A stretch of 47,600 bases of DNA, taken from IMG/VR virus record IMGVR_UViG_3300045988_132551. One strand, 5' to 3'. Numbering within the stretch: position 1 is the stretch's first letter; the number at the start of each line of letters is the position of its first letter. A program made the position numbers and the translations under genes. The notes below the pieces were generated by a model. That model saw only the letters and a program-made list of their open reading frames with translations. It had not been told where the DNA came from and searched no databases. The stretch comes from a virus. This document shows, in pieces, positions 1 to 29,476 of this stretch.

Positions 1-99
1 AGCTCCTTTTATAGTTTTTATAAGAGATGTTGTTTTAGACGTGCAGCTGTGATATATTATAAGTATAAAAGACGTTCAGTCGTACTTAATTTTAGAAAG
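1..99. repeat. terminal direct repeat, copy 1 (identical to 47502..47600); circular-closure overlap of the contig
   Basis: The string agctccttttatagtttttataagagatg...ttttagaaag is read at both ends of the window. Confidence 0.95.
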
Positions 100-108
100 T
101 ATATTGCT

Positions 109-504
109 ATGGAACTTGATACTAATAATCATTCAGTGTTCATGCTTAATTATCATTTAATTATGTGTGTCAAATACAGGAATAATGTTATTGATGATGC
201 GATCTCATTACGGCTTAAAGAGATATTTAAAAACATATGCCTTAATTATAATATTTCGTTGGAAGAATGGAATCACGATAAAGACCATGTTCATGTACTG
301 TTCAGAGGACAGCCTAATAGTGAGATTTCTAAATTTATCAATGCTTATAAATCAGCAAGCAGTAGACTTATAAAAAAAGAATATCCAGAAATCAAGAAAC
401 ATTTATGGAAGGATATGTTCTGGTCACAAAGCTATTGTTTGATATCTACAGGTGGGGTGACCGTAGATATTATTAAGGAATATATTCAAACGCAAGGAAG
501 GTAA
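109..504 (+). CDS. tnpA: IS200/IS605 Y1 (HUH) transposase TnpA
   Basis: HUH motif in DHVHVLF, C-terminal SQSYCLISTGG (catalytic Tyr region), size about 130 aa. ORF 49..504 trimmed to the ATG at 109. Confidence 0.9.
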   Translation: MELDTNNHSVFMLNYHLIMCVKYRNNVIDDAISLRLKEIFKNICLNYNISLEEWNHDKDHVHVLFRGQPNSEISKFINAYKSASSRLIKKEYPEIKKHLWKDMFWSQSYCLISTGGVTVDIIKEYIQTQGR

Positions 505-509
505 AATAT

Positions 510-1661
510 ATGTCAAAAGCAAACAAAAGTAACAAGGCAATTAAATATAGACTCTATCCAAATGATGAACAAAAAGTCATGTTTGCAAAAACTTTTGGTT
601 GCTGTCGTTTTGTCTATAACCAATTACTTGCCCTGCAAAAACAAAGATACAAAGATGGAGAATCCCATCTTTCTAAGCTTAAATCAAATGAGTTCGCTAC
701 TCGTACATTAAAAAAAGATTATGATTTTCTCAAAGAAATAGATAAATTTGCTGTTTCAAATGCCGTTTTTCATTTAGCAGACGCCTATGACAGATTTTTT
801 AAAAAACAAAATCATTTTCCTAAATTCAAAAGCAAAAGAAAATCTAAAAAGTCGTATACAACAAATTTTACAAACAACAATATTCTTATTGGTAAAAATG
901 TCATAAAGCTTCCTAAAGTTGGAATGGTCAAAGCTGTTATTCATAAGTTGCCTAAAGATGATTGGAAGCTTAAATCTGTTACTGTCTCTCAAGATAGTGT
1001 CGGTAACTATTTTGCTTCCGTTCTTTTTGAATATGAACAGGAAGACATTCCATCTGTTTCCAAATCAAGTACAAATGCTATTGGACTTGACTATAAATCC
1101 GATGGACTTTATATGGACAGTAATGGGAATAAAGCAGGAGTTCATAAATACTATCGAGAAAGTCATAAGAAGCTTGCTAAAGAACAAAGAAGACTTTTAC
1201 GAAAAGCGGGTTCTAAAAAGAATGAAACAAAATCAAGCAACTGTTTTAAACAAATGAGAAAAGTAAACAGAATCTATAGAAAAATAGCGAATCAACGTCT
1301 CGACAGTCTTCATAAGAAATCTACTGAGATAGCCAATCAGTATGATATCGTATGTGTCGAAGACTTAGATATGAAAGCTATTGGAAATAAAGGTTTTGGC
1401 AATGGAAAAGCGACCTTTGACAACGGTTATGGAATGTTTCTTAATATGCTTGAGTACAAGCTTAAAGAAAGAGGTAAATATTTTGTAAAAGTTGACAAGT
1501 GGTACCCTTCTAGCCAAATCTGTCATTGCTGTGGAAGTGTAAAAAAACTCGACCTAAAAGACCGAGTTTATACATGTGATTGTGGTTATACTGGAGACAG
1601 AGACCATAATGCAGCAATCAATATACTTACAGAAGGATTGAGGATTCTTCAGTCCTTATAG
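510..1661 (+). CDS. tnpB: TnpB (IS605 OrfB-family RNA-guided nuclease)
   Basis: N-terminal KYRLYPNDEQ signature, RuvC-like VCVEDLDMK, zinc ribbon CHCCG..CDCG, C-terminal DRDHNAAINI. SD aaggaagg lies upstream. Confidence 0.9.
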   Translation: MSKANKSNKAIKYRLYPNDEQKVMFAKTFGCCRFVYNQLLALQKQRYKDGESHLSKLKSNEFATRTLKKDYDFLKEIDKFAVSNAVFHLADAYDRFFKKQNHFPKFKSKRKSKKSYTTNFTNNNILIGKNVIKLPKVGMVKAVIHKLPKDDWKLKSVTVSQDSVGNYFASVLFEYEQEDIPSVSKSSTNAIGLDYKSDGLYMDSNGNKAGVHKYYRESHKKLAKEQRRLLRKAGSKKNETKSSNCFKQMRKVNRIYRKIANQRLDSLHKKSTEIANQYDIVCVEDLDMKAIGNKGFGNGKATFDNGYGMFLNMLEYKLKERGKYFVKVDKWYPSSQICHCCGSVKKLDLKDRVYTCDCGYTGDRDHNAAINILTEGLRILQSL

Positions 1662-4209: not shown

Positions 4210-5091
4210 ATGGCAGGAGATAAATTCCATAGAAACGCTTTGAAACCTCAAAATATGGATTATGAAGAAAGAGTTAATAATATGAAAAATAATAAGAAAG
4301 GACACAATGGATTGATAACAAACAAAATATTTCCAGATGGAGATTTAAGTTTGAGCAATTCAATCAAACTTATGGAACATGGAAATACATTTGAACAACG
4401 CAATGGTAGACCATTAAGTTATGCTAGTGTAGATAGTTTTGATAGAGAAGTATTCGATTTTGCTAAATTTTGTGATGAAAACAAGGTGACACCAACGAGA
4501 CCTGCTATGGCATTATGGTTAGGGGTTACTTCTAACACTATAGCAAGGTGGAAGGAAGACAACACTAACCCATTCTCGACATCTATTAAAAAAGCCGAAG
4601 AATTATTCCATCAATTCATACTTGAAAAGACCATGCAAGGCTCAATCAATACGCTTTTATACTTCTTTTTAGGTAAGAACTGGTTTGGTATGCAAGACAA
4701 GACAGAAGTAGTCCATAAGTCGTCGTCAAACGTGATAGACTTGGATGAACAAGAAAGAATTATCAATTCTACACCTGGAATAGTCATAGACGCTGAATTT
4801 AAGCCCGTAGAGAGCGAAAAGCCAAAGGTAGGTGTAATTGATACCCCAAACGTAAACAACGCTCAAATCGAAAAAAATGAGGCTTCTAGAGGACTTGCAG
4901 ACTTACAGACTTCGAGGGGTGTAGACTTAGAGGACTTTGCAGACTTACTCGCAGGTGAAGACTTGCAGACTTTGAGCGACCATGTAGACTTGCGGACTTG
5001 CGGACTTGCGGACTTTGACCCCCACCCCCCTGCAGACTTACAGACACACACAAAAATCCCACCAGACACAGGGTGGGATGACGATTTATAA
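4210..5091 (+). CDS. terS: terminase small subunit (gp3/Terminase_2-like HTH core) with a repeat-encoded C-terminal tail
   Basis: PTRPAMALWLGVTSNTIARW..(helix)..LLYFFLGKNWFGMQDKTEV matches the conserved terS pattern P..gLa..LGvs..T...W....F.LkN.fGw.Dk.E. SD aaaggag. Confidence 0.7.
   Translation: MAGDKFHRNALKPQNMDYEERVNNMKNNKKGHNGLITNKIFPDGDLSLSNSIKLMEHGNTFEQRNGRPLSYASVDSFDREVFDFAKFCDENKVTPTRPAMALWLGVTSNTIARWKEDNTNPFSTSIKKAEELFHQFILEKTMQGSINTLLYFFLGKNWFGMQDKTEVVHKSSSNVIDLDEQERIINSTPGIVIDAEFKPVESEKPKVGVIDTPNVNNAQIEKNEASRGLADLQTSRGVDLEDFADLLAGEDLQTLSDHVDLRTCGLADFDPHPPADLQTHTKIPPDTGWDDDL
4891..5045. repeat. array of about 13 RGACTT-containing octamers inside the terS 3' end
   Basis: ggacttgc, agacttac, agacttcg, tagactta, ggactttg, agacttac, agacttgc, agactttg, tagacttgc, 3x ggacttgc/ggactttg in tandem, gcagactta. 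The region is locally GC-rich. Confidence 0.9.
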
Positions 5092-5788: not shown

Positions 5789-6105
5789 AAGTTAGAAATT
5801 TAGAAGGTCAAAGCGGTAGAGCAGTAGTAAATCAATTTGTAATAGAAGACGATAATAGAAAGGTATTCCAATCATACGATAGCACCATTGTAGAAGTAAA
5901 ATGGCACGCTGATTTTTGTAAAGTGAATATCGGCTATGATTGGGATTATTCAAGAACTACAAGTAAGTATTTTAAAATATTCTTGACGGATGAGGTCGGA
6001 TTTACTGATAAAGAAGTAGAACAAATCAAGAAAGAATTGAGAAAAGGACACGATTATATCGTTATCGGTCGCTTTATCATTCATTATTGTGAGGGTATGC
6101 GATAA
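5785..6105 (+). CDS. hypothetical protein
   Basis: Strong SD/ATG. 106-aa ORF. Confidence 0.7.
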   Translation: MKVRNLEGQSGRAVVNQFVIEDDNRKVFQSYDSTIVEVKWHADFCKVNIGYDWDYSRTTSKYFKIFLTDEVGFTDKEVEQIKKELRKGHDYIVIGRFIIHYCEGMR

Positions 6106-6473: not shown

Positions 6474-6498
6474 AAACAAAAAAAAAGGAGGAATGATT

Positions 6499-7590
6499 AT
6501 GAAAAATCAAAATGCGATAGGAGAAAAATACAACCATTGGACAGTTATTGATGTAGTGATGAATGAAAAAAGACATGAATATGAATGGATATGTATGTGC
6601 GATTGTGGAAATATAGTTCAACAAAGAACATACAATGTAAAGAGTGGAAAATCAAAACAATGTAGAGAATGTTCTAGTAAAAATAAAGTCTCAAAAAATC
6701 CCAAAAAATTAAAAAGGGAAAACACTAGTATTTCATATATAGGTAAGCAATATGGGGAATTGATAGTAGAGGACGATTATTATGATAAAAAATTGAAATG
6801 TAGGATTTTCAAATGTAAATGTAGTTGTGGACAAACTAGATTGGCTAAAAGATATAAAGTCCTAAACGGAGAAATAACTCATTGTACTTCTAAAATTCAT
6901 AGGCTATCAAATAATAATACTAAATATATAGGATATAAAAGTGGTGATTTGACAGTTAAATCTTTTGTATATGATGAAAATTTACAAATGATAAAGTGGG
7001 TGTGTGAATGTTCGTGTGGAAAAACTAGAGAGGTTATACCTTATTTTATCAAACATAATTTAGCAACCGCTTGTATAGAATGTACTAATGAAAAGATAAG
7101 ATTACAAAACAAAGAAAATAATAAAACTCACGGCTTATCAAATGAAAGATTGTATAAAACATGGAGTGGAATGAAAGCAAGATGCTACAATCCTAAAAAT
7201 GAAAGTTACAAAAATTATGGAGGTCGAGGTATAAGTATTTGCGAAGAATGGAAAAATGATTTTTTACCATTTTATAATTGGGCAATGGATAATGGCTATG
7301 AAGATTATCTTACTATAGATAGGATAAACAACGATGGAAATTATGAACCTAATAATTGTAGATGGGCAACATACAAACAACAAGCTAACAATAAAAGAAA
7401 TCCAACTCCAAAATTATATTTAACCATTGATGGAGTTAAAAAACCTATAATAGAATGGGCGAAAGAGTCTGAATTTACAACTCCTGCTATAATGTATCGT
7501 TTAAATACCAAACATATGAGCGGAAAAGAAGCCGTGTTTGGTGAAAGAAAAGCTTATCAAAATTATGTAAAATGGGGAGAAGATTTATAA
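6499..7590 (+). CDS. HNH_3-like / homing-endonuclease-like DNA-binding protein with three N-terminal Cys-rich modules
   Basis: C-terminus THGLS..LYKTWSGMKARCYNPKN.SYKNYGGRGISICEEW..F..W..DNGY...LTIDRINNDGNYEPNNCRWAT..QQANNKR, a recurrent phage motif. The N-terminus carries three repeats of the type W(I/V)C.C.CG....C.EC. Confidence 0.45.
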   Translation: MKNQNAIGEKYNHWTVIDVVMNEKRHEYEWICMCDCGNIVQQRTYNVKSGKSKQCRECSSKNKVSKNPKKLKRENTSISYIGKQYGELIVEDDYYDKKLKCRIFKCKCSCGQTRLAKRYKVLNGEITHCTSKIHRLSNNNTKYIGYKSGDLTVKSFVYDENLQMIKWVCECSCGKTREVIPYFIKHNLATACIECTNEKIRLQNKENNKTHGLSNERLYKTWSGMKARCYNPKNESYKNYGGRGISICEEWKNDFLPFYNWAMDNGYEDYLTIDRINNDGNYEPNNCRWATYKQQANNKRNPTPKLYLTIDGVKKPIIEWAKESEFTTPAIMYRLNTKHMSGKEAVFGERKAYQNYVKWGEDL

Positions 7591-8754: not shown

Positions 8755-8975
8755 GAATTATAAGTCAAGATGATAGGATTGATATTCCATACAGATTATG
8801 TTCTCTTGAAGAAGGAGAAAATGATGGAGGAACTTACACTATAGAAGCTGTTGTGTTTACATCAAGAATTTTTATGGGGAAATATGAAACAGAAGAACGT
8901 GCTAAAGAAATCATTCAAGAAATTAGAGAAAGATATAACATAGGTGCTAAATTCTATGTTATGCCTAAAGAATAA
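8751..8975 (+). CDS. hypothetical protein
   Basis: Translationally coupled ORF (ATGA overlap). Confidence 0.6.
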   Translation: MRIISQDDRIDIPYRLCSLEEGENDGGTYTIEAVVFTSRIFMGKYETEERAKEIIQEIRERYNIGAKFYVMPKE

Positions 8976-10651
8976 TGAACCAAAATGAAGAAAGTATAGC
9001 TATTCTTTTATCTCAATTAAAAGAAACAATGCCTTATTTCATGCGTATGGAGAAACTCAATCTTTTACGTGATTTATCTAAAAAAGAAAATAAGACTGAT
9101 GTTTTGAGAGCGACTTGCAGAGGGCAGATTAAACTTATAAATGCTCATATGAAAGATTTAAAAGATGATGAAAAACTCAAAGCCTACAATTTTTTACGTG
9201 ACGCACATACGGACAATGGGAGATACGATTTAGAGTCGTATCTTATTGCTATGGAGTGGGATAGAAAACCAGAGAAAAGATTTTATCAACCTCGTATGAA
9301 AGTCCTCCATCCTGTCATGAAGGATTTACAGGATTTAGGGGACGGGGTCATTGACATATATTTATTGTCCATGCCACCAAGAATAGGTAAAAGTACTATT
9401 GGTTTATTCTTTATGTCGTGGTTGGCAGGGCGTTATCCAAATGAACATATCTTTGGAGCTGGTTATGCTAGTGGATTGGTAAATACCTTTTGTAAAGGGG
9501 TATTGGATTTCATAGACAGTGAAGAATATCGTTTTTATGAGATATTTCCAGAAGCTAGAGGTAAATTGACTACCTCCGCTAAAGATATGACAATCGACAT
9601 ATGGGAGAATGAGCGTTATAAGACACTTACGTTCCGTTCGATTGATGGGCAGATTACAGGTGCGTTAGAGGCTGAAAGTCTGTTGTATCTAGATGATATG
9701 TGCTCTGGTATTGAAGAAGCTATGAATATTGACCGACTAGAAAAGCTATGGTCAAAAGTAACTGTTGATTTAATGCAAAGACGTGTCATGAATAAAAGAA
9801 CAGGACGATTAGCACCTATTCTAGGTATCGGCACTATATGGTCAGTACATGACCCAATTTCTAGATTGGAAAGAAAATATGGCAAGACAAAGAGATTTCG
9901 CTCTCGTAAGATGCCAGCTTTGAATTTAGATGGTAAAAGTAACTTTGACTATGACTATAATGTAGGATATACAACATCTATGTATCAAGAATTGAAAAGC
10001 AATATGGATGAAGTATCATGGGAATGTGTATATCAACAAAACCCTATGGAACGTGATGGTTTATTATTCCCTGGTAGTGAATTGAAAAGATACTTGTCAT
10101 TACCTAACAAAAAACCAGATGCTATTATTGCTCATTGTGACGTCGCCTTTGGTGGTGACGATTTCATCAACTTCCCTGTGGGGTATATTTATGGTGAGGA
10201 TTGCTATGTCGTAGATACAGTATTTAGATGTAAAGCTGACTATAAAGTAACTGAACCTATGGTTGCAGGTAAGATAGTACAACATGAAGTACAGATGGCT
10301 CACTTTGAAGCAGATAGAGGTGGGGATTTCTATGCACGTGATGTAGACGATATGGTGAAAAAAGGTAGCAAACACAGGTGCAACATTACATGGAGTTCTG
10401 CAGGTACTAAACAAAGCAAGTTGGTACGTATCATTCAGTATGCACCAGATATTAAGCGAATGTACTTCAAAGACCCATCATTGTATAAGCCAACGGACGA
10501 TTATGGTAGAATGATGTCCAATGTCACGACATTTGTTCAAACAGGCTCATCATTGCATGATGATGGTCCAGATGGTTTAGCTGGTTTAGCCAAATTATTC
10601 AAGCAACCTATGATAGGAGCTGTAAGTTCTCCATTTAAAAGACCATTTTAG
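8975..10651 (+). CDS. terL: terminase large subunit
   Basis: Walker A PPRIGKST, Walker B LLYLDD, C-terminal nuclease-like acidic motifs (HCDVAFGGDD, LHDDGPD). 558 aa, upstream of the portal gene. Confidence 0.85.
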   Translation: MNQNEESIAILLSQLKETMPYFMRMEKLNLLRDLSKKENKTDVLRATCRGQIKLINAHMKDLKDDEKLKAYNFLRDAHTDNGRYDLESYLIAMEWDRKPEKRFYQPRMKVLHPVMKDLQDLGDGVIDIYLLSMPPRIGKSTIGLFFMSWLAGRYPNEHIFGAGYASGLVNTFCKGVLDFIDSEEYRFYEIFPEARGKLTTSAKDMTIDIWENERYKTLTFRSIDGQITGALEAESLLYLDDMCSGIEEAMNIDRLEKLWSKVTVDLMQRRVMNKRTGRLAPILGIGTIWSVHDPISRLERKYGKTKRFRSRKMPALNLDGKSNFDYDYNVGYTTSMYQELKSNMDEVSWECVYQQNPMERDGLLFPGSELKRYLSLPNKKPDAIIAHCDVAFGGDDFINFPVGYIYGEDCYVVDTVFRCKADYKVTEPMVAGKIVQHEVQMAHFEADRGGDFYARDVDDMVKKGSKHRCNITWSSAGTKQSKLVRIIQYAPDIKRMYFKDPSLYKPTDDYGRMMSNVTTFVQTGSSLHDDGPDGLAGLAKLFKQPMIGAVSSPFKRPF

Positions 10652-10653
10652 TG

Positions 10654-10682
10654 TTGACATATGACGAAACAAATGGTAATAT
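10654..10682 (+). promoter_or_regulatory. strong sigma70-type promoter TTGACA-N17-TAATAT
   Basis: Consensus hexamers; the spacer ends ATGG as at 7609. Confidence 0.65.
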
Positions 10683-10886
10683 AATAGTGTACTGAATAAG
10701 TAGGTAATTTCTTTTGATAGACATTTTTATATTTCCTTTATAATAAATAGTCCCTAGTTGGTACGCTAGGTTGCTTTCAAAGTGCGTTAGGTAGTCGCAA
10801 AGGGTTAGCGTAAAAAAGATAATTACTGCCTATACTAGTTTTTTTTGTAAAATTGATTTCAAGTTACCCGCTGGGGCTTGAAACAT

Positions 10887-10966
10887 GCCAATTTAGTTTC
10901 AATCAGGTAAAATGTTCTCTAGATGGTGCATAGAGAAAGATGCAGGTTCAAATCCTGTAATTGGCA
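10887..10966 (+). tRNA. tRNA-like gene 1 with a non-canonical (13-nt) anticodon loop
   Basis: Acceptor GCCAATT/AATTGGC + A. D arm GTTT-caatcaggta-AAAT. Stem TTCTC/GAGAA enclosing tagatggtgcata (or a 7-bp stem + 9-nt loop). Variable AGAT. T arm GCAGG-TTCAAAT-CCTGT. Confidence 0.6.
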
Positions 10967-11041
10967 CATTTATTATATGCGGATTTTGCCATCTTGCTTG
11001 TAGGTTTTCACCATTGTACCTATTTAATCAATGGTTTAAAT

Positions 11042-11120
11042 GTCAGTTTAGTTTTAATTGGATAAAAATGTTCTCTAAACAATGTCGAGAAAGATACAAG
11101 TTCAAATCTTGTAACTGACA
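11042..11120 (+). tRNA. tRNA-like gene 2 with a non-canonical (11-nt) anticodon loop
   Basis: Acceptor GTCAGTT/AACTGAC + A. D arm GTTT-taattggataa-AAAT. Stem TTCTC/GAGAA enclosing taaacaatgtc. Variable AGAT. T arm ACAAG-TTCAAAT-CTTGT. Stem changes relative to gene 1 are compensatory. Confidence 0.6.
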
Positions 11121-11169
11121 TCCATCACGATTTATTCTCATAGAATTAACACCTTAACTATAGGAGAAG

Positions 11170-11204
11170 GACACATCACAAATGGTTGATGTGTCTTTTT
11201 CTTT
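11170..11204 (+). terminator. rho-independent terminator
   Basis: gacacatca-caaatggt-tgatgtgtc followed by tttttcttt. Confidence 0.8.
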
Positions 11205-11234
11205 ATGATAAAATCAAACAAGAGAGGTGATAAC

Positions 11235-12974
11235 ATGGATGAACCAACTGTAGACCAAGAAAAAGAAAGAGAGAAGATGGAGAGTTTAGTAAGTGACCTT
11301 ATTCAAGGTGTCGCTCCTGCTACTCAACCAATTCCTATTTTTAAAGGTCGAAAGAAAATATATACAAATTACATCAATAAAGAGCAGGTTGGTGATGAAA
11401 TGACAGGATTTAAGAAACTCGATAAAAATAATATCGTAAGAGCATTAAATCTAGCATTAAAGACACATTATAAAAATGCCTATGAAATTAGATTTTTAAG
11501 AGATTATCACAATGGTGTGCAAAGCATCTTTAATCGTGTAAAGGATATTAGACCAGACGTGGATAATAAAGTGGTAATTAATTATGCTAGTACGTTTACT
11601 AGAGATATTATCGGTTATACTTTTGGTAAACCTATGCAATATGTAGCTAGAAGAACTGATAATGAGGATACAAATGGCTCAAACCCTATCAAAGAAGAAG
11701 TTCGTTTATTGAATGACTATGCTGAAATGAATGACAAGCCATCAAGTGACCAAGAAAAAGCTACTGATTGTAGTATCTTTGGTATTTCTCATAGAGGGGT
11801 TTTTCCTAATAGAGTAGAAAATGAAGATGAAGCGCCTTATTATTATTTGAATTTAGATAGTGAATGTACATTTGTAGCCTATTCTTCTCAATTAAGACGA
11901 GACCCTGTATTTGCGGTCACATATACAAAAAGTTGGGGAGAAAATGAAGATGACTATGTTCTCATGACAGTTTATACTATGAGTGAAATTTATATGTTTA
12001 AAATCCCATTTTCTAGCACAACTGATTACAATGGATATATTGGTGTGACAGTTACAGATGGTAATTTAGTTACAGGCTATCCTAAACCAAATCCTTTAGG
12101 TGTGTTACCTATCGTTGAATGTGAAAACAATCAATTTAGAATGGGACATTGGGAAACTGCTATTACATTGATGGATGCTATCAATAAAGTAGGAAGTGAT
12201 AGTGTCAATGACGTAGAACAATTCGTAAATTCTATTTTAGTAGCTATAAATGCTGAATTTACTGAAAAAGAAATGAACAATGTAAAATCTAACAAGTTCG
12301 CCCAAATTCGTTCCCCACAAGGATTGAACTGCGATTTAAAATATATCCAAGCACAATTGGACGGTACTTCCGTAGAACAGTTAAGACAATATCTAGAAGA
12401 TAGTTTAAGGGCTGTCGTAGGTATTCCAGACCGTAAAACACGCGGTGGAGGCGGGGGAGATACAGGTGACGCTGTAAAACTCCGTGACGGATGGGCAGAC
12501 ATGGAAGTAGTGGCACGTACTACTGAAACATTTAATAAGAAATCTGAAAAGAAAGAATTGCGTGTTATATTAAAAATATTACGTGACTTGAAAAAAATTT
12601 CTAAAACGAGTATGATAAACGTAGATATTAAATACCCACGTAACAAAACAGACAATTTGAATAGCAAAGTAACTGCTATGGCAACTATGTTAAATACACA
12701 AGTAATGGCGCCAAGTGACGTACTCGATATAGTGGACATCACAAGTGACAATACAGAAGTAATCGAACGTGGTGAGGAGTATTGGAAAAAGAAAAAAGAA
12801 GAAAATTTCGAGGAGCAACAACGACAACTTCAACTCACTCAACAAATGAGTCAAGGTGACGATAATACTACTCGAGGAGGAGGAAACAAAGATGGACAAC
12901 CAAACTCAACAAAATCAAGCGAGTCAACAAGGGACTCAAAATCAAACAGTGGTAAATCAACAAACACAAAATAA
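11235..12974 (+). CDS. portal protein
   Basis: About 580 aa, immediately after the terL unit. SD agagaggtga before the ATG at 11235. Low-complexity basic/polar C-terminus. Confidence 0.75.
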   Translation: MDEPTVDQEKEREKMESLVSDLIQGVAPATQPIPIFKGRKKIYTNYINKEQVGDEMTGFKKLDKNNIVRALNLALKTHYKNAYEIRFLRDYHNGVQSIFNRVKDIRPDVDNKVVINYASTFTRDIIGYTFGKPMQYVARRTDNEDTNGSNPIKEEVRLLNDYAEMNDKPSSDQEKATDCSIFGISHRGVFPNRVENEDEAPYYYLNLDSECTFVAYSSQLRRDPVFAVTYTKSWGENEDDYVLMTVYTMSEIYMFKIPFSSTTDYNGYIGVTVTDGNLVTGYPKPNPLGVLPIVECENNQFRMGHWETAITLMDAINKVGSDSVNDVEQFVNSILVAINAEFTEKEMNNVKSNKFAQIRSPQGLNCDLKYIQAQLDGTSVEQLRQYLEDSLRAVVGIPDRKTRGGGGGDTGDAVKLRDGWADMEVVARTTETFNKKSEKKELRVILKILRDLKKISKTSMINVDIKYPRNKTDNLNSKVTAMATMLNTQVMAPSDVLDIVDITSDNTEVIERGEEYWKKKKEENFEEQQRQLQLTQQMSQGDDNTTRGGGNKDGQPNSTKSSESTRDSKSNSGKSTNTK

Positions 12975-26370: not shown

Positions 26371-26943
26371 ATGGGTAAACGTGAAAAAGTGATGTTTACG
26401 ATATTCGTAGTCATTGTTCAAGTTTTACAGTTTCTATTAGTTTACTCGATAGCATGGTTGAATAACCGAACTATTGAGTTTTTATTTATATTTTTCAGTT
26501 TTCAAATGAATAGAATGGTATTCGGTAAATCTTATCATGCGAATAGCTTATCTAAATGTACATTGATTACATTAGTAACATTCTATCTATTAATCAAAGG
26601 AGTCATTCCTTTAAATATATCATTATTTGCCACTCCTCTCTTTGGAGTATATCTATCATACGTACTGAACATTATACAGGAATTGATAGACAATCAAGAA
26701 GTTCCTAAACCATTCGTAAAGAAGAGATTGAGAGAACAAATCATAGAGATACTAGGAGAAGACTTAAGTGAAGAACACATAAATGAAATTTGTAGAGTGA
26801 AAGGTATCAATCCTAAAGTAGCTGAAACTGTTTATCTCTATATTGACAATTCAAAAGATGAAGTAGCGGATATATTGGATATTCAAGGTACGACAGTTAT
26901 TAGGAGATTGAAAAAGTTTATAGAAAAAGCGACTTTAAAATAA
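26371..26943 (+). CDS. membrane protein with AgrB-like H-x7-C motif and a C-terminal sigma70-region-4-like HTH
   Basis: FGKSYHANSLSKCTLITL compared with the AgrB consensus GG.HA.s...C.i.S. C-terminus DEVADILDIQGTTVIRRLKKFIEKA. SD aaaggag. Confidence 0.6.
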   Translation: MGKREKVMFTIFVVIVQVLQFLLVYSIAWLNNRTIEFLFIFFSFQMNRMVFGKSYHANSLSKCTLITLVTFYLLIKGVIPLNISLFATPLFGVYLSYVLNIIQELIDNQEVPKPFVKKRLREQIIEILGEDLSEEHINEICRVKGINPKVAETVYLYIDNSKDEVADILDIQGTTVIRRLKKFIEKATLK

Positions 26944-28547: not shown

Positions 28548-29476
28548 GTGGAGTTATGTGTGGAAAAAATTTATTTAATTACAATACTTATATAAAAAAT
28601 AATAAACAATTAAAAATTATCATCAAAGGTGGAAAGACATTGTTTAGAAACAATAGTATTTCTAGTGGATTAAATTATAAAATATATGATATAAATAACA
28701 ATATTTTGGGGACTTTTATCAGTTTAAATTTTACAGCGACAAATCCGTTAAAATTACCAACAAATGCATCATATATTGAGATAAAATCTGATAATCCTTT
28801 TAGAAATTTATATATTGGGTATAGTTCAAACACCACTTATGAACCTTATATTGGTAGTATTTTAAATTACACTCTTCAAAATCCTCTTTATAAAATTGGT
28901 GATGTATATGATTACATTGATTTTAACAGGGGCAAGATTGTAAGAAATATAGGTGTAATAACTTTTGATGGAAGTGATGATGAAAATTGGACAATATATG
29001 GTAATAATACAAATATGAGTGGCTATACGATAAATATCAGTAATGCAATAGATACTACTCCATGTATTTGCAATAAACTTTTAACCACAGATGCTATTTC
29101 TACTACATTGGAAGAAGCAATAAAAGTTTTAGATAACGCTATGCATGTTGTATTAAATAAAATAAGAGGTCTAAATACTACTGAGCTATTTAAAAGTTGG
29201 CTTCAATCAAACCCAATAACAGTTTATTATCAACTTTCAACACCAACTGAAGAAGATATTCCAACTGAACTTTTAACTCAATTAAAACAATTACAAACAT
29301 ACTCAGGTGAAACAAATATTTCATTTGAAGCAAGTGATGTCTACCCTACTATTGACCTAGAATATATTAAAGATACTAAAAAATATATTGAAAGTAAAGA
29401 AGAACTTGACAATCAAAGCATCATTGATATTGATTATAGAGTTACTTGTTTAGAATTAGATATGGAGGAACAATAA
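28544..29476 (+). CDS. tail fibre / receptor-binding protein, C-terminal segment (frame open from 28454)
   Basis: The frame reads GQTAQPFEPYTGGKPSPNPEYPQEIKAVNKLSGVMCGKNLFNY.. The P.P.YPQEI ... GKNLF motif is common in Firmicutes phage fibre proteins. Confidence 0.6.
   Translation: MSGVMCGKNLFNYNTYIKNNKQLKIIIKGGKTLFRNNSISSGLNYKIYDINNNILGTFISLNFTATNPLKLPTNASYIEIKSDNPFRNLYIGYSSNTTYEPYIGSILNYTLQNPLYKIGDVYDYIDFNRGKIVRNIGVITFDGSDDENWTIYGNNTNMSGYTINISNAIDTTPCICNKLLTTDAISTTLEEAIKVLDNAMHVVLNKIRGLNTTELFKSWLQSNPITVYYQLSTPTEEDIPTELLTQLKQLQTYSGETNISFEASDVYPTIDLEYIKDTKKYIESKEELDNQSIIDIDYRVTCLELDMEEQ

What the first reader, a model, noticed from the sequence alone, without database searches (positions are those of the whole stretch)
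10887..11120. Two covarying tRNA-like genes with 13-nt and 11-nt anticodon loops in their own transcription unit
Two elements of about 80 nt lie 75 nt apart, and each folds into a near-perfect cloverleaf. Each has a 7-bp acceptor stem, a discriminator A, a U8-A9-like TA, a D arm with GG, a 4-nt variable region AGAT and a TTCAAAT T-loop. They are clearly paralogous. They differ by at least three fully compensatory base-pair changes: acceptor bp 2 C-G to T-A, acceptor bp 5 A-T to G-C, and T-stem bp 4 G-C to A-T. That pattern argues for selection on structure rather than decay.

In both, the 5-bp anticodon stem TTCTC/GAGAA encloses a loop far larger than the canonical 7 nt. The loops are tagatggtgcata (13 nt, or 2 extra bp plus a 9-nt loop) and taaacaatgtc (11 nt). 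I cannot draw a 7-nt loop with U33 for either. The loop sequence is the main difference between the two copies.

They sit between terL and the portal gene, behind a consensus TTGACA-N17-TAATAT promoter (10654) and ahead of a strong terminator (11170).

Possible roles, all inference: non-triplet or otherwise unusual decoding, decoys or baits for anticodon-loop nucleases and other tRNA-targeting host defences, or a tRNA-like structural or primer RNA.
Basis: partly seen in the sequence, partly recalled or inferred. Interest (0 to 1): 0.85.

Follow-up and report, generated by a model that had tools for sequence, protein, structure and literature searches.

The report
Non-decoding tRNA mimics in gut phage
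An uncultured human-gut phage carries, between its terminase and portal genes, a small non-coding RNA operon with two well-preserved tRNA-shaped RNAs whose anticodon loops are far too large to read codons; they are probably accessory tRNA mimics, but what they do is untested.

Summary
Window 10887-10966 (t1) and 11042-11120 (t2) both score above the Rfam tRNA threshold (43.7 and 41.7 bits; threshold 29). The model has to insert 13 and 11 nt in place of the 7-nt anticodon loop. ARAGORN with default settings finds no tRNA.

The cloverleaf is under selection. Of 210 pair cells in 10 variants, 99.5% are paired. Three pairs changed on both sides between the paralogs, and two more changed in a divergent t2. 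The G·U pairs fit only a + strand RNA.

It runs: conserved promoter, a ~100-nt nearly invariant leader core, a hairpin, t1, a conserved spacer, t2, and a strong terminator.

The cassette occurs only in one gut-phage species cluster (24 loci, 11 haplotypes). Four haplotypes carry a single copy. Relatives with 67-85% terL identity lack it and carry other cargo in the same slot.

The anticodon arm is the fast-evolving part. Loop types swap between copies, only the apical triplet varies, and one variant has a ~20-nt loop.

Decoding, mini-introns and aminoacylation are all disfavoured. Best reading: tRNA-derived, non-decoding mimics matured by host tRNA-processing enzymes, acting as accessory RNAs such as a decoy or inhibitor, or as processing modules. 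Function is unproven.

The parts
10654..10682 (+). Sigma-70-type promoter: TTGACA, 17-nt spacer, TAATAT, with TG upstream of the -10 hexamer. It starts 3 nt after the terL stop codon.
   Evidence: Found by the scan with 10 of 12 consensus matches. In L024/L043 both hexamers are kept while the spacer has diverged. A similar promoter sits after terL in L065, L067, L072 and L074, ahead of unrelated cargo.
10746..10848 (+). Leader core, nearly invariant. It contains the hairpin CCTAG-TTGGTACG-CTAGG (10753-10770), the helix AGGTAGT/ACTGCCT, and a T8 run (10839-10846). It could be an sRNA ending in a terminator or an attenuator-like leader. No Rfam family matches.
   Evidence: 8 of 103 columns vary across all 11 haplotypes, against 39-71% in the adjacent leader, hairpin and trailer. 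RNAalifold structure. An alternative fold is within 3 kcal/mol of the best one. No Rfam hit at E<10.
10854..10885 (+). Hairpin ending 1 nt before the 5' end of t1. Its structure is kept but its sequence is replaced in the divergent relative.
   Evidence: The window hairpin folds at -10.5 kcal/mol. L024 has a 10-bp hairpin of unrelated sequence at the same place.
10887..10966 (+). tRNA-like RNA t1 with a 13-nt anticodon loop (10920-10932) and a variable apex triplet at 10925-10927.
   Evidence: Rfam tRNA, 43.7 bits. Model R1 scores 105.6 bits. Pair counts. Loop variants.
10967..11041 (+). 75-nt spacer between the tRNA-likes, containing the hairpin CACCATTG...CAATGGT. It is conserved but absent from single-copy haplotypes.
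   Evidence: 9 of 75 columns vary across all haplotypes. It is deleted together with t2 in 4 of 11 haplotypes. Fold.
11042..11120 (+). tRNA-like RNA t2 with an 11-nt anticodon loop (11076-11086) and an apex triplet at 11080-11082.
   Evidence: Rfam tRNA, 41.7 bits. Model R1 scores 95.8 bits. The L024 orthologue keeps the acceptor and T arm but has a CTCC/GGAG stem and a ~20-nt loop.
11162..11205 (+). Intrinsic terminator closing the unit: stem GACACATCA/TGATGTGTC followed by a T run.
   Evidence: Folds at -21.9 kcal/mol, z = -5.7. One haplotype group (L018/L059) changes both sides of a stem pair, C-G to T-A. The same terminator type is conserved in relatives that lack the cassette.

Best explanation
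t1 and t2 are tRNA-derived, non-decoding tRNA mimics. They are expressed as part of an accessory non-coding RNA operon in a phage of low-G+C human-gut bacteria.

Shown by the data:
- A complete tRNA body is preserved: 7-bp acceptor stem, U8/A9, a D loop with G18G19, T54-T55-C56, and A73.
- The body is under purifying selection at the RNA level.
- The anticodon arm is always kept as a stem-loop but is remodelled to 11, 13 or ~20 nt.
- That arm is the fastest-changing part.

Inferred steps:
1. The primary transcript runs from the promoter at 10654 to the terminator at 11162-11205.
2. Host RNase P and RNase Z cut out the tRNA-likes and the host enzyme adds CCA, because the acceptor/T/elbow features these enzymes recognise are intact.
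3. The products cannot decode on the ribosome, since there is no 7-nt loop or canonical stem length. They are unlikely to be aminoacylated.
4. They act through body mimicry on a host factor that binds tRNA. The enlarged, rapidly varying anticodon arm would be the specificity or evasion determinant.

The most plausible target is a tRNA-directed defence effector such as an anticodon-arm nuclease, with the mimic serving as a decoy or RNA inhibitor. Cleavage at the tRNA-likes would also define the ends of the conserved leader and spacer RNAs.
For: - tRNA homology with inserted loops. No canonical call from ARAGORN.
- Structure under selection. 99.5% of pair cells are paired, against 39-51% for slid registers. 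Three pairs changed on both sides between the paralogs. Two more, 27-43 and 30-40, changed in L024 t2 (read).
- Within-lineage stem substitutions only switch G·U with A-U and C-G with U·G.
- The G·U pairs make sense only on the + strand RNA.
- In the most divergent haplotype the tRNA bodies, core, spacer and terminator stay conserved. The linkers between them diverge by 39-71%.
- The anticodon arm is the variable module:
  - 13-nt loops read TAGAT[GGT/AGC/AGT]GCATA.
  - 11-nt loops read TAAA[CAA/CAC/CCA/TAA]TGTC.
  - Loop types are swapped onto the t1 body in L056 and L024.
  - L024 t2 has a ~20-nt loop.
- Apex triplets vary at 4 of 6 positions, against 45 of 547 in the rest of the intergenic region (Fisher p = 7e-4, a post hoc test).
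- The location is an accessory-cargo slot. Eight relatives with 67-85% terL identity carry other cargo or none.
- tRNA-targeting defences, and phage tRNAs shaped by them, are established (PMC10264068; PMC13056530).
Against: - There are no expression, processing or binding data.
- A decoy must compete with a very large host tRNA pool. An enlarged loop does not resemble any real anticodon loop, so it may not be recognised by anticodon nucleases at all.
- The host and its defence systems are unknown.
- The excess of variation at the apex rests on few independent events, one of which is a whole-loop swap, and the test was chosen after seeing the data. An apical triloop may simply be unconstrained.
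- The leader core is more conserved than the tRNA-likes, so the main functional RNA of the operon may be something else.
- No partner protein was found in the window.
Confidence: 0.35

Rival explanations
1. Processing or 'punctuation' modules. The tRNA-likes exist mainly as RNase P and RNase Z cleavage signals, and as folding or stability elements. They would define the 3' end of the conserved leader RNA and release the spacer RNA. Under this view the anticodon arm is functionally irrelevant, and the leader core or spacer is the real effector.
For: - The leader core and spacer are as conserved as the tRNA-likes or more so.
- A structurally conserved hairpin ends 1 nt before t1. It would protect the 3' end of an RNase P-released leader.
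- RNase P and RNase Z do not need the anticodon arm (established knowledge), which fits its variability.
- Two other phage lineages carry different non-canonical tRNA-likes inside non-coding cargo in the same slot. L067 4975-5046 has an aberrant D arm. L035 5871-5941 has an aberrant T loop.
- Module boundaries fall at tRNA-like 3' ends.
Against: - The core carries its own stem plus T8 run, so it may not need a downstream cleavage site.
- Single-copy haplotypes lack the spacer altogether.
- The anticodon arm is never lost. It is rebuilt with compensatory changes in L024 t2.
- The D/T elbow and the anticodon stem are fully conserved, which is more than a minimal cleavage signal needs.
- Apex variability exceeds that of neighbouring unconstrained sequence.
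Confidence: 0.25
2. Unusual decoders: frameshift, quadruplet or suppressor tRNAs, or tRNAs whose loops hold a mini-intron that is removed to give a normal anticodon loop.
For: - The tRNA body is perfect.
- For t1 an extended stem leaves the loop AU-GGU-GC with U33.
- Relaxed ARAGORN offers Cys(GCA) with a 6-nt intron.
- Only the central triplet varies.
Against: - Orthologous loops are 11, 13 and ~20 nt, so no single geometry is conserved.
- The 11-nt loop cannot give U33 under any contiguous excision (read from sequence).
- The extended t1 stem would be 3 pairs too long for the ribosome.
- The inserts are far too short for a group I intron and there is no bulge-helix-bulge motif. Bacteria lack a splicing endonuclease (established knowledge).
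- Known natural and engineered expanded loops are 8-9 nt.
- Phage ORFs read through normally with table 11.
Confidence: 0.04
3. Aminoacylated carriers for a non-ribosomal reaction such as cell-wall, lipid or DNA modification. The anticodon arm would be disabled to keep them out of translation.
For: The acceptor stem and A73 are intact. Precedents exist for non-proteinogenic tRNAs and for tRNA-dependent phage DNA modification (PMC13219725).
Against: - None of the anticodon-independent identity sets is present. There is no G3·U70, as 3-70 is C-G. There is no long variable arm, as it is 4 nt. There is no G-1, as T precedes both genes.
- No aminoacyl-transferase-like gene was detected among the ORFs scanned.
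Confidence: 0.05
4. Relics without function: decaying phage tRNA genes, or DNA-level features such as a recombination linker or an attachment site, that merely hitch-hike.
For: - The cassette is restricted to one phage species cluster.
- Copy number is polymorphic.
- L024 t1 has a G1·A72 mismatch.
- Module boundaries coincide with tRNA-like ends.
Against: - Five compensatory double changes and no disruptive stem substitution apart from one cell.
- The G·U pairs are strand-specific.
- Conserved and diverged blocks alternate on a 30-100-nt scale that matches the RNA modules.
- The promoter and terminator are conserved.
- No integrase was detected among the window ORFs scanned (not every ORF was scanned).
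Confidence: 0.08

Closest known systems
Canonical phage-encoded tRNAs, including those with anticodon-loop substitutions proposed to evade host anticodon nucleases (van den Berg et al. 2023, PMC10264068)
   Same: They are phage-borne and have a full cloverleaf that matches the Rfam tRNA model. Change is concentrated in the anticodon loop. Both may be linked to tRNA-targeting defence.
   Different: Those tRNAs keep a 7-nt loop and decode. Here the loops are 11, 13 and ~20 nt with no canonical U33 geometry, so the RNAs cannot replace depleted tRNAs.
Viral tRNA-like RNAs of murine gammaherpesvirus 68 (vtRNAs linked to pre-miRNAs). This comparison rests on my own knowledge and was not checked here.
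   Same: They are virus-encoded tRNA-shaped RNAs that are processed by host tRNA enzymes and receive CCA but are not aminoacylated. Their cleavage releases co-transcribed small RNAs.
   Different: That is a eukaryotic Pol III system with miRNA hairpins. Here there is a bacterial sigma-70 promoter, different flanking RNAs and expanded anticodon loops.
Bacterial and phage Y RNAs (YrlA) with a tRNA-like domain bound by Ro60/Rsr (Sim & Wolin 2018, cited in PMC12135203)
   Same: They are non-decoding RNAs that mimic the tRNA acceptor/T/D part, and some are phage-encoded.
   Different: No Rfam Y-RNA family matched. No Ro60/TROVE gene was found among the ORFs scanned. In Y RNAs the Ro-binding stem formed by the RNA ends replaces the anticodon arm, which is a different architecture.
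Frameshift-suppressor or quadruplet-decoding tRNAs with 8-9-nt anticodon loops
   Same: The anticodon loop is enlarged on an otherwise normal tRNA.
   Different: The loops here are 11-20 nt and differ in length between orthologues. No recoding signal was found.
Stable RNAs co-transcribed with phage tRNA clusters (T4 species 1 and 2), and large phage ncRNAs found next to tRNAs (GOLLD, ROOL). This comparison rests on my own knowledge.
   Same: They are phage non-coding RNAs of unknown function, physically linked to tRNA or tRNA-like genes.
   Different: There is no sequence or Rfam match. The window leader core is only ~100 nt.

Membership tests
tRNA (Rfam RF00005), canonical decoding tRNA | Cloverleaf with a 7-bp acceptor stem, a D arm with G18G19, a T arm with T54-T55-C56, and a discriminator base | tested here: met
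   The model aligns over its full length at 43.7 and 41.7 bits, above the gathering score of 29. 99.5% of pair cells are paired.
tRNA (Rfam RF00005), canonical decoding tRNA | 5-bp anticodon stem closing a 7-nt loop with U33 and a purine at position 37 | tested here: not met
   The covariance model inserts 13 and 11 nt at the loop. ARAGORN with default settings finds no gene, and its relaxed calls contradict each other. An orthologue has a ~20-nt loop.
tRNA (Rfam RF00005), canonical decoding tRNA | Aminoacylation and delivery to the ribosome | not testable with these tools
   Sequence reading only: there is no G3·U70, no long variable arm and no G-1, and the anticodon identity elements are absent.
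Intron-containing tRNA genes (bacterial group I intron, or archaeal bulge-helix-bulge intron) | An insert with a group I intron fold or a bulge-helix-bulge motif, whose removal leaves a canonical loop | tested here: not met
   The inserts are 4-13 nt. No intron family appears in Rfam at E<10. No contiguous excision of the 11-nt loop yields U33 (read from sequence).
Expanded-anticodon (8-9-nt loop) frameshift suppressor tRNAs | A loop of 8 or 9 nt kept constant among orthologues | tested here: not met
   The loops are 11, 13 and ~20 nt, and loop types are swapped between orthologous bodies.
tmRNA | A tRNA-like domain together with a tag-peptide reading frame | tested here: not met
   ARAGORN finds no tmRNA in the window. 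Rfam shows no tmRNA hit.
Y RNA / YrlA with Ro60 (Rsr) | Match to the Y-RNA models, and a neighbouring TROVE/Ro60 gene | tested here: not met
   No Rfam hit. No TROVE domain in the ORFs scanned with Pfam or PHROGs. Not every small ORF was scanned.
T-box leader (considered for the conserved core at 10746-10848) | Stem I with a specifier loop, plus the T-box antiterminator and terminator; match to RF00230 | tested here: not met
   No RF00230 hit at E<10. The only resemblances are a UGGUAC hexamer and two competing folds, at -18.8 and -15.9 kcal/mol. The 5' leader is not conserved.

The most novel reading that the evidence does not exclude
The cassette is a new class of phage counter-defence or host-manipulating RNA. 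An intact tRNA body presents an extended, irregular anticodon arm whose fast-evolving apical triplet and exchangeable loop type set specificity. For example, it could act as an RNA inhibitor or bait for anticodon-arm-directed immune nucleases. Its expression would be gated by the invariant leader core acting as a novel attenuator. More broadly, the terL-portal slot in this phage group would be a hot spot where different 'crippled' tRNA mimics have been recruited independently at least three times.
Probability: 0.15. Interest if true: 0.85.

Novelty: new variant of a known kind. Interest (0 to 1): 0.55.

Why it matters
tRNAs are a main battlefield between bacteria and phages. Known examples include PrrC, PARIS, retron-associated nucleases, bacterial Schlafens, and Cas13 and Cas12a3. 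The known phage answers are functional replacement tRNAs and repair enzymes.

A structurally maintained, non-decoding tRNA mimic with a fast-evolving, enlarged anticodon arm would be a different kind of answer: an RNA decoy or inhibitor. Alternatively it would be a bacterial-virus counterpart of herpesvirus tRNA-like processing modules.

The element is small, sits in a widespread human-gut phage, and makes clear predictions about processing, lack of charging and binding partners. It can therefore be tested directly.

There is also a practical point. Standard tRNA finders miss or mislabel such genes, so similar elements may be under-counted in viromes.

Tried and rejected
1. DNA similarity of the intergenic region to 50,697 GenBank phages gave no match.
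2. The portal protein matches isolated phages at only 36% identity or less (Eggerthella, Clostridium and Streptococcus phages). That gives no host assignment.
3. Pattern scans of IMG/VR, metagenome and GTDB genome collections found only the same phage cluster plus canonical tRNAs:
   - Anaerococcus tRNA-Trp
   - a tRNA-Asp cluster
   - one 8-nt-loop tRNA
4. Model R1 was run on terL relatives with 38-85% identity and found no homologue of t1 or t2.
5. Antisense-guide idea, t1 loop: the window holds no perfect complement other than the loop itself.
6. Antisense-guide idea, t2 loop:
   - It has one exact 11-nt complement at 28636-28646, in a tail-fibre-like ORF.
   - No contig with the cassette matched the target pattern. 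Only two IMG/VR contigs without the cassette did.
   - I therefore judge the match to be chance.
7. The t1 loop could pair with the spacer sequence CACCATT, but the loop varies while the spacer does not, so this was rejected.
8. The 68-aa ORF at 10912-11118 was rejected as coding. It is mostly deleted in single-copy haplotypes and is frameshifted by the 2-nt loop deletion in L056 and L024.
9. A T-box reading of the leader core and a reading of the core as a third tRNA-like were both rejected, since Rfam shows no hit.
10. The attP/integration reading was set aside. No integrase was detected among the ORFs scanned, and the phage has its own DNA polymerase and primase, so it looks virulent.
11. 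Four literature searches for phage tRNA-likes with enlarged anticodon loops found no prior description.
12. Two further searches, on decoys against anticodon nucleases and on non-canonical phage tRNAs, also found none.
Full report
**Observation**

A scan of the whole window against Rfam at gathering thresholds returns one hit, tRNA RF00005 on t1 at 43.7 bits. A local scan also finds t2 at 41.7 bits; the gathering score is 29. Both alignments span the full model, positions 1-71. In place of the 7-nt anticodon loop the model has to insert 13 and 11 nt.

ARAGORN with default settings reports no tRNA or tmRNA anywhere in the window. With lowered thresholds and intron options its calls contradict each other: an undetermined tRNA with a 2-nt anticodon, Cys with a 6-nt intron, Phe, and mitochondrial Thr. 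The elements are therefore tRNA homologues with non-canonical anticodon loops, well beyond chance.

One nuance concerns t1. A 7-nt loop with U33 (AUGGUGC) can be drawn, but only by extending the stem with U-A, A-U and a G·A mismatch to eight pairs. That is still not a canonical arm. No such drawing exists for t2.

**Context**

The upstream ORF, 8975-10651, is a large terminase (PHROG 38, E = 7.7e-56). The downstream ORF, 11205-12974, is an SPP1-type portal, and an SU10-type capsid gene follows.

The window is a ~32% G+C tailed-phage genome. It has its own DNA polymerase, primase-helicase and SNF2 helicase, plus an IS200/IS605 TnpA-TnpB pair. No integrase, RNA ligase, CCA-adding enzyme or Ro60 was seen among the ORFs scanned.

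The promoter is TTGACA-17-TAATAT at 10654-10682. The terminator at 11162-11203 folds at -21.9 kcal/mol with z = -5.7. Together they bracket a 550-nt non-coding unit.

**Relatives**

GenBank phages show no DNA match, and the portal has at most 36% identity to any isolated phage. IMG/VR and public metagenomes, including ones labelled human gut, hold the same phage at 96-99% terL identity. That gives 24 loci and 11 distinct haplotypes of the intergenic region.

Their alignment shows that the unit is modular. In the most divergent haplotype (L024/L043) the following diverge by 39-71%:
- the promoter spacer
- the 5' leader
- the hairpin before t1
- the D arm and anticodon arm of t2
- the trailer

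The following stay conserved:
- the -35 and -10 hexamers
- a ~100-nt leader core (10746-10848; 8 of 103 columns vary)
- the body of t1
- the spacer
- the acceptor and T arm of t2
- the terminator

The hairpin that ends one base before t1 is replaced by an unrelated 10-bp hairpin. Conserved and free blocks alternate on a 30-100-nt scale that follows RNA modules. This points to selection rather than recombination mosaicism.

**Structure under selection**

On ten distinct tRNA-like sequences, 99.5% of 210 pair cells are standard pairs. When the partner columns are slid by one to three positions the figure falls to 39-51%. Three pairs changed on both sides between the paralogs: 2-71 CG/UA, 5-68 AU/GC, and the fourth T-stem pair GC/AU.

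The L024 copy of t2 adds two more double changes in the anticodon stem: 27-43 UA to CG, and 30-40 UA to CG. I read these.

Within lineages the only stem substitutions are G·U to A-U and C-G to U·G. The single unpaired cell is G1·A72 in L024 t1. The invariant G10·U25 pair and the G·U variants in the T stem would be C·A mismatches on the other strand. The constrained molecule is therefore the + strand RNA.

**The anticodon arm is the variable module**

- The 13-nt loops read TAGAT[GGT/AGC/AGT]GCATA.
- The 11-nt loops read TAAA[CAA/CAC/CCA/TAA]TGTC.
- Only the central triplet varies.
- The t1 body carries the 13-nt type in most genomes and the 11-nt type in L056 and L024.
- L024 t2 has a different stem (CTCC/GGAG) and a ~20-nt loop.
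- Four haplotypes have a single copy, with the boundary exactly at the tRNA 3' end.

Among the ten close haplotypes the apex triplets vary at 4 of 6 positions, against 45 of 547 elsewhere in the intergenic region (Fisher p = 7e-4). That test was chosen after seeing the data, and it rests on few events, one of which is a whole-loop swap.

Both loop types can be drawn as irregular helix extensions with a purine-purine mismatch, capped by the variable triplet. The variation could therefore reflect either an unconstrained apex or diversifying selection.

**What it is not**

*Decoding.* This is unlikely for three reasons:
- Orthologous loop lengths differ (11, 13 and ~20 nt).
- There is no canonical U33 geometry.
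- The phage ORFs read normally in table 11.

*A mini-intron.* This is unlikely because the inserts are 4-13 nt. No intron family or bulge-helix-bulge motif is present. No excision of the 11-nt loop gives U33.

*Aminoacylation without an anticodon.* This is unlikely because none of the anticodon-independent identity sets is present. Pair 3-70 is C-G, the variable region is 4 nt, and a T precedes G1.

*An antisense-guide role.* I tested this as follows:
- The only exact complement of a loop lies at 28636-28646, in a tail-fibre-like ORF.
- No contig with the cassette matched the target pattern; only two phage contigs without the cassette did.
- The match is best explained by chance.

*A protein-coding reading.* The 68-aa ORF across t1-t2 is destroyed in several haplotypes.

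**Distribution and the slot**

I fetched eight relatives with 67-85% terL identity through the protein collection. None has a t1/t2 homologue.

The simplest junction is just a terminator and the portal promoter (L071, L073). Others keep a promoter right after terL and carry unrelated cargo:
- 110-200 nt of non-coding or small-peptide sequence (L065, L069, L072, L074)
- a 103-aa ORF (L066)
- ~690 nt of non-coding sequence plus small ORFs (L067)

The slot therefore holds accessory cargo.

Two other lineages carry different crippled tRNA-likes in this slot. L067 4975-5046 has a 7-bp acceptor stem, a canonical T arm, a 7-nt loop on a 4-bp stem, and an aberrant D arm. It gets no Rfam tRNA hit at E<5. 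L035 5871-5941 scores 51.7 bits with a Trp-like loop but has an aberrant T loop, and ARAGORN does not call it. It lies inside 1.5 kb of ORF-poor sequence.

**Origin**

The only matches to the body pattern among 185,579 species genomes are tRNA-Trp(CCA) genes of two Anaerococcus genomes. Their D arm, AGAT junction and T arm are almost identical to t1. The mimics probably descend from such a tRNA. This is also a weak hint that the host belongs to the Peptoniphilaceae. The tRNA-Trp identity features are gone: A73 replaces G73 and the anticodon is lost.

**Mechanism**

The data establish a maintained, + strand, tRNA-shaped RNA with an intact acceptor/T/D body and a remodelled anticodon arm. It lies in a promoter-terminator unit in an accessory slot.

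The rest is inference. Maturation by RNase P, RNase Z and the CCA-adding enzyme is expected because their recognition features are intact. No decoding and no charging are expected. I give two models the most weight:

(a) The mimic engages a host factor that binds tRNA. The fast-changing arm would be the specificity or evasion element. The most plausible partner is a tRNA-targeting defence effector, given how common these are (PMC10264068, PMC13056530). Confidence 0.35.

(b) The tRNA-likes are processing and stability modules for the conserved leader and spacer RNAs. Confidence 0.25.

The two are not exclusive. Model (a) is favoured by the retention and rebuilding of the anticodon arm, the full conservation of the elbow, and the excess variation at the apex. 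Model (b) is favoured by the stronger conservation of the leader core, the hairpin abutting t1, and the recurrence of differently crippled tRNA-likes inside non-coding cargo.

**Novelty and score**

Six literature searches found no description of phage tRNA-likes with 11-20-nt anticodon loops.

The kind is known. Non-decoding tRNA mimics include Y RNAs, herpesvirus vtRNAs and pseudo-tRNAs. This is a new variant, confined so far to one gut-phage species cluster. Interest is 0.55. The structure and its evolutionary pattern are clear and unusual, and the hypotheses are directly testable, but the function is unproven.

Noticed in passing
window 10746-10848 (+): The leader core upstream of t1 is the most conserved part of the intergenic region (8 of 103 columns vary across 11 haplotypes). 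It can fold as hairpin 10753-10770 plus the helix AGGTAGT/ACTGCCT followed by a T8 run (-18.8 kcal/mol). Alternatively UACGCUAG pairs with UUAGCGUA (-15.9 kcal/mol). It contains UGGUAC, which resembles the T-box bulge that pairs with NCCA, and both tRNA-likes have A73. No Rfam family matches. It may be a new sRNA or attenuator.
   Followed up: partly
window 10846-10853 (+): TGTAAAAT, an extended -10-like motif, lies directly after the T8 run. It may be a second promoter driving t1/t2 independently of the leader. It is only weakly kept in L024.
   Followed up: no
window 49-1661 (+): An IS200/IS605 element sits inside the phage genome: a Y1 transposase (TnpA, Pfam Y1_Tnp, 2e-43) followed by a TnpB/Cas12f-like protein (OrfB_IS605, Cas12f1-like_TNB). 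I did not look for its guide (omega) RNA downstream of 1661.
   Followed up: partly
window 26371-26943 (+): A phage ORF matches AgrB, the protein that processes the quorum-sensing peptide (Pfam PF04647, 7.5e-11).
   Followed up: no
L035 5414-6929 (also L036-L040): A phage with 40% terL identity has 1.5 kb of ORF-poor sequence (53% G+C) between terL and portal, with a promoter-like start. It contains a tRNA-like at 5871-5941 (Rfam 51.7 bits, loop CUCCAAA, aberrant T loop; ARAGORN does not call it). Homology between L035 and L036-L038 is 98% up to position 5944 and breaks right after the tRNA-like 3' end. This may be a large structured ncRNA.
   Followed up: partly
L067 4690-5370: A relative with 75% terL identity keeps the promoter after terL but carries ~690 nt of unrelated non-coding sequence with several strong hairpins. 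It includes a cloverleaf-like element at 4975-5046 with a canonical T arm and acceptor stem and an aberrant D arm. Small ORFs follow.
   Followed up: partly
P0002, P0017, P0042 and other terL homologues; L071 3001-5688: Many terL homologues in this phage group are ~895 aa instead of 558 aa and hit LAGLIDADG_3, which suggests an intein or homing endonuclease inside the terminase. An HNH endonuclease gene also lies upstream of terL in the window (6493-7590).
   Followed up: no
L054 2034-2110 (JACCEA012482540.1): ARAGORN calls a tRNA of undetermined type here, with a 4-nt anticodon (ctaa) and an 8-nt loop on a 6-bp stem. Its body resembles t1 and t2. The organism is unknown.
   Followed up: no
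window 28636-28646 (+): An exact 11-nt complement of the t2 loop lies inside a tail-fibre-like ORF. No contig with the cassette matched the target pattern, while two IMG/VR contigs without the cassette did, so I judge it to be chance.
   Followed up: yes
L067 2371-2646; L072 2021-2266: Relatives carry a gene with the Pfam 'Sequestin' domain (PF21825) just upstream of the terminase genes. I did not look into its function.
   Followed up: no
L018/L002/L050/L052/L053/L057/L059 (single-copy haplotypes): Four of 11 haplotypes have one tRNA-like instead of two. The boundary falls exactly after ...AATTGGCA, the tRNA 3' end, with only a CA microhomology. So a unit of one tRNA-like plus the spacer (154 nt) was duplicated or deleted.
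   Followed up: partly
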